From the IMG/VR virus record IMGVR_UViG_2740892270_000009: a stretch of 4,555 nt of DNA. One strand, given 5' to 3'. Positions 1,842 through 2,925 of this stretch are shown here, piece by piece. This DNA is from a virus. Taxonomy: Duplodnaviria > Heunggongvirae > Uroviricota > Caudoviricetes. Made by a program: the position numbers and the translations under genes. The stretch's first letter is position 1. The number at the start of each line of letters is the position of its first letter. The notes beneath the pieces were generated by a model that was not told the DNA's origin, ran no database searches, and worked only from the letters and a program-made list of their open reading frames with translations.

Positions 1842-2925
1842 ATGATACCGTTTTACTTCGGGTTTCCGGTCGCGAATGGGGCGGCTGGACATCCGTCCGT
1901 ATCAGTGCGGGCATTAACCGTATTGCCCGGGATTTTAATGTTGCCATTACCACCCGCTGGCCCGGAAGCCGGGATTATCAACCCCGGATAAAAAATGGTG
2001 AGCTGGTTGAAGTGCTTATCGGGGATGAGCCTGTGCTCACCGGATATGTGGAGGCACTACCNNNNNNNNNNNNNNNNNNNNNNNNNNNNNNNNNNNNNNN
2101 NNNNNNNNNNNNNNNNNNNNNNNNNNNNNNNNNNNNNNNNNNNNNNNNNNNNNNNNNNNNNNNNNNNNNNNNNNNNNNNNNNNNNNNNNNNNNNNNNNNN
2201 NNNNNNNNNNNNNNNNNNNNNNNNNNNNNNNNNNNNNNNNNNNNNNNNNNNNNNNNNNNNNNNNNNNNNNNNNNNNNNNNNNNNNNNNNNNNNNNNNNNN
2301 NNNNNNNNNNNNNGTTCAGACGCTGGCTTATGACGATGAATGCGGGCGACTGGTTCTGGGAAAACCCGGAACAGGTAAAGCGGCGACGGCGCTGGTGCTG
2401 GTGCTGGGAGAGAATATTCTTTCCTGTGACACGGAAAGAAGCATCAGAGAGCGGTTTTCTGAATATCAGGTCAGTGGGCAGCGCCCGGGCAACGACGATG
2501 ATTTTGGTGAGGCCACCATTGCCGCAATACGTCAGACCATTCAGGACAGTGGCGTGACCCGTTATCGCCCTTTGTTGATTCAGCAGTCAGGCACAGCAAC
2601 GACAGCAACCTGTAAGGCCCGTTGTGAATTTGAAGCGCGCCAACGGGCTGCGCTTACCCGTGAGACAACATATACGGTTCAGGGCTGGCGGCAGGGCAGT
2701 GGCGCGTTATGGCGTCCGGGGTTATCTGTCATCGTTTTCGACCCGCTGAATAATTTTGATAATGATGAACTGGTGATCGCAGAAGTTACCTATAACCAGG
2801 ACGACCGGGGCACGACGACTGAATTACGGGTTGGCCCGGCAGATGCTTATCTCCCCGAGCCTGTTACCGCCAGGAAGAAAAAAATGTTGAGGAGGATTTC
2901 TGATGAACGGGTTTTCTCTTCGTAA
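1838..2925 (+). CDS. Mu P (gp44) / P2 gpD-like baseplate hub protein, with an apparent frame discontinuity across the 2062..2313 mask (possible pseudogene)
   Basis: N-terminal part MNDTVLLRVSGREWGGWTSVRISAGINRIARDFNVAITTRWPGSRDYQPRIKNGELVEVLIGDEPVLTGYVEAL is in frame 2 (1838..2061). The C-terminal part VQTLAYDDECGRLVLGKPG...DELVIAEVTYNQDDRGTTTELRVGPADAYLPEPVTARKKKMLRRISDERVFSS is in frame 1 (2314..2925, stop TAA 2923..2925). Summed length of about 362 codons fits a hub protein as I remember it. The mask is 252 nt, a multiple of 3, so the two parts do not join in frame as written. Confidence 0.6.
2062..2313. other. Masked interval of N bases (252 positions) inside the hub gene
   Basis: Run of n characters. 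Confidence 1.
2889..2895 (+). promoter_or_regulatory. Shine-Dalgarno sequence (GAGGAGG) for the spike gene
   Basis: gaggagg lies 7 nt upstream of the ATG at 2903, inside the 3' end of the hub gene. Confidence 0.5.

What the first reader, a model, noticed from the sequence alone, without database searches (positions are those of the whole stretch)
2062..2313. Hub gene (P-like) changes reading frame across a mask whose length is a multiple of three
The recognisable N-terminal part is in frame 2 (1838..2061) and the recognisable C-terminal part is in frame 1 (2314..2925). The frame-2 continuation after the mask is a Trp/Arg-rich peptide ending at 2557 that looks like nonsense. Because the mask is 252 nt, the two halves cannot be joined without a net 1-nt frame change in the hidden bases. 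Either the gene carries a frameshift mutation (pseudogene, consistent with the IS1 damage nearby) or the mask is not length-faithful.
Basis: seen in the sequence. Interest (0 to 1): 0.4.

Follow-up and report, generated by a model that had tools for sequence, protein, structure and literature searches.

The report
Masking artefact in prophage hub gene
The apparent reading-frame change in this prophage baseplate-hub gene arises because the N-mask (252 N) is 5 bases longer than the 247 bases it hides, so the gene is continuous there and the finding is ordinary.

Summary
The GpP/gp44-like N-terminus is in frame 2 (1838..2061), the C-terminus is in frame 1 (2314 onward), and the mask is 252 N (0 mod 3).

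The cause is the mask, not the gene. The window comes from the phiP27-like prophage remnant of Shigella sonnei, which is cut by two IS1 copies. One S. sonnei assembly (L003) is 100% identical to all 3,630 visible bases. In all 8 S. sonnei loci and 2 E. coli loci read, the hidden stretch is the same 247 nt (1 mod 3). With it the gene is one 360-aa ORF, 99% identical to the phiP27 baseplate hub. The other two masked stretches also have the wrong length (410 vs 492, 263 vs 249).

Two real length changes lie in the visible part and were missed:
- The (GCTGGT)n array at 2391..2407 is the published S. sonnei MLVA locus SS13. Its forward primer matches 2318..2337 exactly.
- The A-run at 2878..2884 is A7 here and A8 in phiP27. 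This is a true -1 frameshift 7 codons before the native stop. It replaces the last 6 residues with a 13-residue tail and extends the ORF 23 nt into gene V.

Everything here is already known or trivial.

The parts
1838..2925 (+). Baseplate hub gene (Mu gp44/GpP-like; orthologue of phiP27 P27p49). It spans 1088 positions in window coordinates but 1083 nt (360 aa plus stop) in the real sequence.
   Evidence: Pfam GpP-like_1st, Gp44-like_2nd, NMB1110_3rd and GpP_4th in order. PDB matches 3cdd at 3e-45 and 1wru (Mu gp44) at 7e-45. 343/347 identical to the phiP27 hub. Called as a single 360-aa gene in L003.
2062..2313 (.). N-mask of 252 positions that hides 247 real bases. This is the source of the apparent frame change.
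   Evidence: Window 2061 and 2314 map to L003 4222 and 4470. The 247-nt stretch between them is identical in L001-L010.
2318..2337 (+). Binding site of the forward primer of S. sonnei MLVA locus SS13.
   Evidence: The primer AGACGCTGGCTTATGACGAT from PMC3420240 Table 1 matches exactly once.
2391..2407 (+). (GCTGGT) tandem array with 2.8 copies, which is VNTR SS13. It adds one in-frame Leu-Val relative to phiP27 and the E. coli relatives.
   Evidence: TRF. 6-nt gap against L001 and L002. 1.8, 2.8 or 3.8 copies among S. sonnei assemblies. SS13 has a 6-bp unit and 2-6 repeats.
2878..2884 (+). A7 homopolymer, which is A8 in phiP27 and most E. coli relatives. This is a real -1 frameshift near the 3' end of the hub gene.
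   Evidence: The protein alignment to the phiP27 hub stops at ...ARKKK.
2901..2903 (+). Ancestral stop codon TGA of the hub gene. In this window it is in frame 3 and is not read.
   Evidence: In L001 and phiP27 the hub CDS ends on the base where gene V starts. Frame arithmetic.
2923..2925 (+). The stop codon actually used (TAA) after the A-run frameshift. The ORF overlaps gene V (ATG 2903) by 23 nt.
1..103 (-). Inner end of IS1 copy 1. It is inserted in the small gene between the tape-measure gene and the DNA-circularization gene, with a 9-bp target duplication CGTTAAAAC.
4453..4555 (+). Inner end of IS1 copy 2. It is inserted in the gp47/baseplate-J gene, with a 9-bp target duplication GGGGGCGCA.

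Best explanation
The frame change across 2062..2313 is an artefact of the masking. The 252 N replace 247 real bases. With the real bases the gene is a continuous 360-aa ORF encoding a Mu gp44/GpP-type baseplate hub protein. It belongs to the phiP27-like prophage remnant of Shigella sonnei, which is disabled by two IS1 insertions. The only real length changes in the gene are in the visible sequence. The first is an in-frame expansion of a GCTGGT repeat, the known typing locus SS13. The second is loss of one A from an A8 run 7 codons before the native stop, which swaps the last 6 residues for a 13-residue tail. Both look like replication slippage (inferred) in a gene that is probably no longer under selection because the baseplate module is broken (inferred).
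For: L003 is 100% identical to the window over all four visible segments, 3,630 nt in total. The stretch between the mask flanks is 247 nt and identical in 8 S. sonnei and 2 E. coli loci. 247 is 1 mod 3, which is exactly what joining frame 2 to frame 1 requires. The reconstructed ORF is 360 aa and carries all four GpP/gp44 Pfam domains contiguously, including Gp44-like_2nd at residues 93-173, which lies mostly under the mask. It aligns end to end with the Mu gp44 and MuSo2 structures and is 343/347 identical to the phiP27 hub with no break at the mask junctions. The other two masked stretches are also the wrong length, 410 vs 492 and 263 vs 249. Gene callers on 8 assemblies call one gene of 350-362 aa. 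The SS13 primer matches, and the SS13 unit and copy-number range agree.
Against: The hidden bases of this particular window were not read. The conclusion rests on identical or near-identical public copies. Only 8 of the many assemblies that carry the arrangement were inspected (226 index blocks), so a rare strain with a real 5-nt insertion cannot be formally excluded.
Confidence: 0.94

Rival explanations
1. The mask is length-faithful. The source strain carries a net +5 nt change in the hidden bases, so the hub gene is a frameshifted pseudogene split into 1838..2557 and 2395..2925.
For: Mask length is 252 and the frames differ. The prophage is already decaying: there are two IS1 insertions and a slippage frameshift at the A-run. 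So a further indel would not be surprising in principle.
Against: All 10 real copies have the same 247 nt. The window is 100% identical to L003 everywhere it can be read. The other two masked stretches also disagree in length with every S. sonnei locus. This reading would therefore need three or more independent indels, all falling in the 20% of the window that is masked and none in the visible 80%. By own calculation the chance of that is at most about 0.2^3 = 0.008 for randomly placed events.
Confidence: 0.04
2. The frame change, or the A-run, reflects programmed ribosomal frameshifting or transcriptional slippage used to make the hub protein.
For: An A7/A8 run is a classical slippery sequence (general knowledge). 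The A7 state recurs in three E. coli relatives.
Against: No frame change exists across the mask in the real sequence. The A-run lies 7 codons from the native stop, and phiP27 and about 45 E. coli relatives encode the protein in one frame with A8. The alternative tails are short and not conserved: 13 aa in S. sonnei, about 46 aa running into V in E. coli L012-L014, and a 1-aa tail then stop with A6 in L004.
Confidence: 0.01

Closest known systems
Baseplate hub protein of Stx2e phage phiP27 (P27p49, NP_543101.1)
   Same: 98.1% nucleotide identity over the whole gene and 343/347 amino-acid identity. The neighbours are the same: DNA circularization protein upstream, then baseplate V/gp45, gp46 and J/gp47 downstream.
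   Different: The S. sonnei copy has one extra GCTGGT unit (+Leu-Val) and A7 instead of A8, which gives a different and longer C-terminal tail. It sits in a prophage broken by IS1.
Mu gp44 (gene P product) baseplate hub, PDB 1wru/9ki1, and the MuSo2 43-kDa tail protein, PDB 3cdd
   Same: Full-length sequence similarity at E about 1e-45 and the same four Pfam domains in the same order.
   Different: These are distant homologues. Identity was not computed, but the printed 3cdd alignment shows many substitutions and a gap exactly at the Leu-Val repeat. No structure was modelled here.
S. sonnei MLVA locus SS13 (scheme of Liang et al. 2007, as used in PMC3420240 and PMC3310650)
   Same: Exact forward-primer match 54 nt upstream of the array. 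6-bp unit. Copy number differs between S. sonnei assemblies at 2, 3 or 4 rounded up, which is within the published 2-6.
   Different: Nothing detected. The reverse primer could not be checked because the original paper is not held.

Membership tests
Mu gp44/GpP-type baseplate hub protein | Four-domain architecture: GpP-like_1st, Gp44-like_2nd, NMB1110_3rd, GpP_4th | tested here: met
   All four are above the gathering score and in order in the reconstructed 360-aa protein.
Mu gp44/GpP-type baseplate hub protein | Full-length sequence homology to a hub protein with a solved structure | tested here: met
   1wru (Mu gp44), query 1-345, E 7e-45. 3cdd, query 3-335, E 3e-45.
Mu gp44/GpP-type baseplate hub protein | Position in a Mu-type tail/baseplate gene block (DNA circularization N, hub, gp45/V, gp46, gp47/J, gp48) | tested here: met
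   Pfam labels of neighbouring genes in L003-L010. RefSeq annotation of L001 and phiP27.
Mu gp44/GpP-type baseplate hub protein | Forms the trimeric central hub of a baseplate | not testable with these tools
In this prophage the J/gp47 gene is cut by IS1, so assembly of a functional baseplate is unlikely (inference).
Frameshifted pseudogene (frameshift located under the mask) | The real sequence between the two halves has a length that breaks the reading frame | tested here: not met
   The real length is 247 nt (1 mod 3) in 10 of 10 loci, giving an uninterrupted ORF.
S. sonnei VNTR locus SS13 | Published forward primer anneals next to the array | tested here: met
   Exact single match at 2318..2337.
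S. sonnei VNTR locus SS13 | 6-bp repeat unit with few copies, variable between strains | tested here: met
   TRF period 6. 1.8, 2.8 or 3.8 copies in 8 assemblies. Published unit of 6 bp and 2-6 repeats.
S. sonnei VNTR locus SS13 | Published reverse primer anneals downstream | not tested
   The reverse primer sequence is not given in the papers held. Liang et al. 2007 (PMC2168494) is not held.
IS1 insertion | 768-bp element with InsA/InsB genes and a 9-bp target-site duplication | tested here: met
   Two identical 768-bp copies, with duplications CGTTAAAAC and GGGGGCGCA. Pfam Zn_ribbon_InsA, HTH_Tnp_IS1 and DDE_Tnp_IS1.

The most novel reading that the evidence does not exclude
The source strain really carries 252 bases under the mask, a strain-specific 5-nt insertion, so that its hub gene is a genuine frameshifted pseudogene. 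This would be one more decay step in an already defective prophage.
Probability: 0.04. Interest if true: 0.08.

Novelty: not a real feature. Interest (0 to 1): 0.05.

Why it matters
It matters mainly as a caution. In this window the N-masks do not preserve length, so any frame or ORF argument that crosses a mask is unreliable. Examples are this finding, the 583-aa 'ORF' at 90..1841 and the ORF at 2903..3562. Biologically the locus is ordinary. It is a phiP27-like prophage remnant in S. sonnei, with IS1 insertions, a known typing VNTR (SS13) inside the hub gene, and a homopolymer slip at the gene's 3' end.

Tried and rejected
(1) A hidden frameshift was rejected after reading the real sequence in 10 loci.
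(2) Programmed frameshifting at the A-run was rejected. The intact one-frame A8 form is the rule in phiP27 and about 45 E. coli relatives, and the site is 7 codons from the stop.
(3) I looked for the 6-bp repeat in the Gorgé-type MLVA scheme (PMC4553163). That scheme has no 6-bp locus, so this was a dead end.
(4) I tried to read Liang et al. 2007 (PMC2168494) for the SS13 reverse primer and genome position. The paper is not held.
(5) Structure prediction, the large protein-database searches and Rfam were not run, because the question was settled by direct sequence comparison.
(6) The E. coli complete-genome collection contains no exact source. Its best hit is 99.4% identical. The source was found instead by exact look-up of the chimeric gp47'-IS1 ORF.

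Full report
**Observation.** The window contains four N runs: 444..695 (252), 698..853 (156), 2062..2313 (252) and 3225..3487 (263). The ORF that starts at ATG 1838 is in frame 2. Its first 74 residues match Pfam GpP-like_1st at E 2e-19. After the mask the homologous reading is frame 1 from 2314, with NMB1110_3rd and GpP_4th (E 1e-19). Frame 2 gives a Trp/Arg-rich peptide that stops at 2557. Because 252 is a multiple of three, the two halves cannot be joined if the mask preserves length.

**Finding the real sequence.** Megablast against complete E. coli genomes found relatives at up to 99.4% identity. In these the gene is an intact 1056-nt 'phage baseplate assembly protein', and the aligned span was 10 nt shorter than in the window.

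Pairwise alignment placed 5 of those 10 nt inside the mask, since the relatives have 247 nt between the flanks. The remaining 5 nt are in visible sequence: a 6-nt insertion at 2391..2396 and a 1-nt deletion in the A-run at 2878.

To find the true source I looked up the ORF 3859..4533. It is a chimera of the baseplate-J/gp47 N-terminus and an IS1 end, so it is diagnostic of this exact arrangement. It occurs in many assemblies (226 index blocks), including HE616528.1, which is S. sonnei 53G.

Locus L003 (GCA_965230885.1) is 100% identical to the window over all four visible segments: 443, 1208, 911 and 1068 nt.

**What lies under the mask.** In L003 the window flanks 2061 and 2314 map to 4222 and 4470, so 247 bases are hidden. 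The same 247 bases, without a single difference, are present in all eight S. sonnei loci and both E. coli loci. 247 is 1 mod 3, which is exactly what joining frame 2 to frame 1 requires.

The reconstructed gene (L003 3999..5081) is a single 360-aa ORF. It has these properties:
- It carries GpP-like_1st, Gp44-like_2nd (residues 93-173, mostly under the mask), NMB1110_3rd and GpP_4th in order.
- It aligns over its whole length with Mu gp44 (1wru, E 7e-45) and the MuSo2 tail protein (3cdd, E 3e-45).
- It is 343/347 identical to the baseplate hub of phage phiP27, with no discontinuity at either mask junction.

**The masks are not length-faithful.** The other masked stretches also disagree with the real sequence in every S. 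sonnei locus. Window 444..853 (410 positions) corresponds to 492 nt, and 3225..3487 (263) corresponds to 249 nt.

If the masks were faithful, the source strain would need at least three separate indels. All of them would have to fall in the masked 20% of a window that is otherwise identical to L003. By my own calculation the chance of that is at most about 0.008 for randomly placed events.

I conclude that the frame change is a masking artefact. The residual doubt is that the hidden bases of this very window were not read.

**Real variation in the visible part of the gene.**

*(a) The GCTGGT repeat.* Positions 2391..2407 are a perfect (GCTGGT) array with 2.8 copies. E. coli L001 and L002 and S. 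sonnei 53G have 1.8 copies. The window, L003 and L008 have 2.8. L004, L005, L007, L009 and L010 have 3.8. This explains the 358-, 360- and 362-aa gene calls. phiP27 also has no expansion here, although its second unit carries a G-to-T substitution (GCTGGTTCTGG).

The forward primer of S. sonnei MLVA locus SS13 (AGACGCTGGCTTATGACGAT; PMC3420240 Table 1) matches 2318..2337 exactly. SS13 is listed with a 6-bp unit and 2-6 repeats among 1,672 isolates (PMC3310650). The repeat is therefore the known low-variability typing locus SS13. Each unit adds an in-frame Leu-Val between the second and third domains, and the MuSo2 alignment shows a gap exactly there.

*(b) The A-run.* The A-run at 2878..2884 is A7 in the window and in 7 of 8 S. 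sonnei loci. It is A8 in phiP27, L001 and L002. By span length, most of the roughly 50 full-length E. coli relatives also appear to be A8.

Loss of one A shifts the last part of the gene. The native end ...ARKKKNVEEDF* uses the stop TGA at 2901..2903, which overlaps the ATG of gene V. It becomes ...ARKKKMLRRISDERVFSS*, stopping at TAA 2923..2925, 23 nt inside gene V. This is a genuine frameshift, but it affects only the last 6 residues.

Three E. coli relatives (L012-L014) also have A7. They lack the TAA, so their annotated hub protein runs on to 391 aa. One S. sonnei assembly (L004) has A6 plus other indels, which may be assembly error.

Slippage at a repeat and at a homopolymer is the likely mechanism. 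This is an inference from general knowledge of replication slippage.

**Context.** The window is the 4.35-kb piece of a phiP27-like prophage lying between two IS1 copies. The copies are identical, 768 bp long and inverted relative to each other. Each is a simple insertion with a 9-bp target duplication.
- One lies in the small gene between the tape-measure and DNA-circularization genes (CGTTAAAAC).
- The other lies in the gp47/J gene (GGGGGCGCA).

Gene order is otherwise colinear with the intact E. coli prophages. The prophage lies next to smpB. phiP27-like prophage regions are already reported in S. sonnei (PMC5447701). With J interrupted, the baseplate module is presumably non-functional, which would explain tolerance of the slippage changes (inference).

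**Comparison with what is known, and verdict.** The protein is a member of the Mu gp44/GpP baseplate-hub family. Domain architecture, homology to solved structures and gene context were all tested and met. Nothing suggests recoding or a new mechanism.

The feature flagged, a frame change across the mask, is not a property of the genome. The real features nearby are the SS13 VNTR, the homopolymer slip and the IS1 insertions. They are known or routine. Interest is very low. The useful lesson is that frame or ORF reasoning across masks in this data set is unsafe.

Noticed in passing
window 444..853 and 3225..3487: The other masks are also not length-faithful: 410 positions stand for 492 real nt, and 263 for 249 (mapping to L003). 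ORFs listed through the masks are artefacts that fuse separate genes. The 583-aa ORF at 90..1841 fuses a hypothetical-gene fragment with the DNA circularization gene. The ORF at 2903..3562 covers gpV and gp46.
   Followed up: yes
window 2391..2407 (primer site 2318..2337): The perfect GCTGGT hexanucleotide array is the published S. sonnei MLVA locus SS13. Copy number is 1.8, 2.8 or 3.8 in the 8 assemblies read. Each unit adds Leu-Val to the hub protein.
   Followed up: yes
window 2878..2884: The A7 run (A8 in phiP27 and most E. coli relatives) causes a real -1 frameshift 7 codons before the native stop. The ORF then ends at TAA 2923..2925 and overlaps gene V by 23 nt.
   Followed up: yes
L012, L013, L014 (E. 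coli ETEC1746, UMNF18, E200086): The same A8-to-A7 change occurs on at least two different E. coli sequence backgrounds, giving an annotated 391-aa hub protein that reads about 70 nt into gene V. This is either recurrent slippage or homopolymer sequencing error. It was not resolved.
   Followed up: partly
window 1..103 and 4453..4555; L003 1415..2182 and 6595..7362: Two identical 768-bp IS1 copies in inverted orientation bracket the window. Each has its own 9-bp target duplication (CGTTAAAAC and GGGGGCGCA), so they are independent simple insertions. There is no inversion of the intervening segment.
   Followed up: yes
L004 (GCA_040189005.1) 4467..6697: This assembly shows A6 in the A-run (hub gene called at 350 aa) plus further 1-nt gaps in the gp46/gp47 region, and a shortened gp46 call of 100 aa. 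This may reflect homopolymer errors in the assembly rather than biology.
   Followed up: no
window 696..697: Two unmasked bases ('aa') sit between two N runs. Their real position within the 492-nt hidden stretch cannot be determined.
   Followed up: no
L003 12667..12675 and equivalent positions in L004-L007, L009, L010: The prophage remnant ends close to smpB, which suggests integration at or near the ssrA/tmRNA site. The attachment site was not examined.
   Followed up: no
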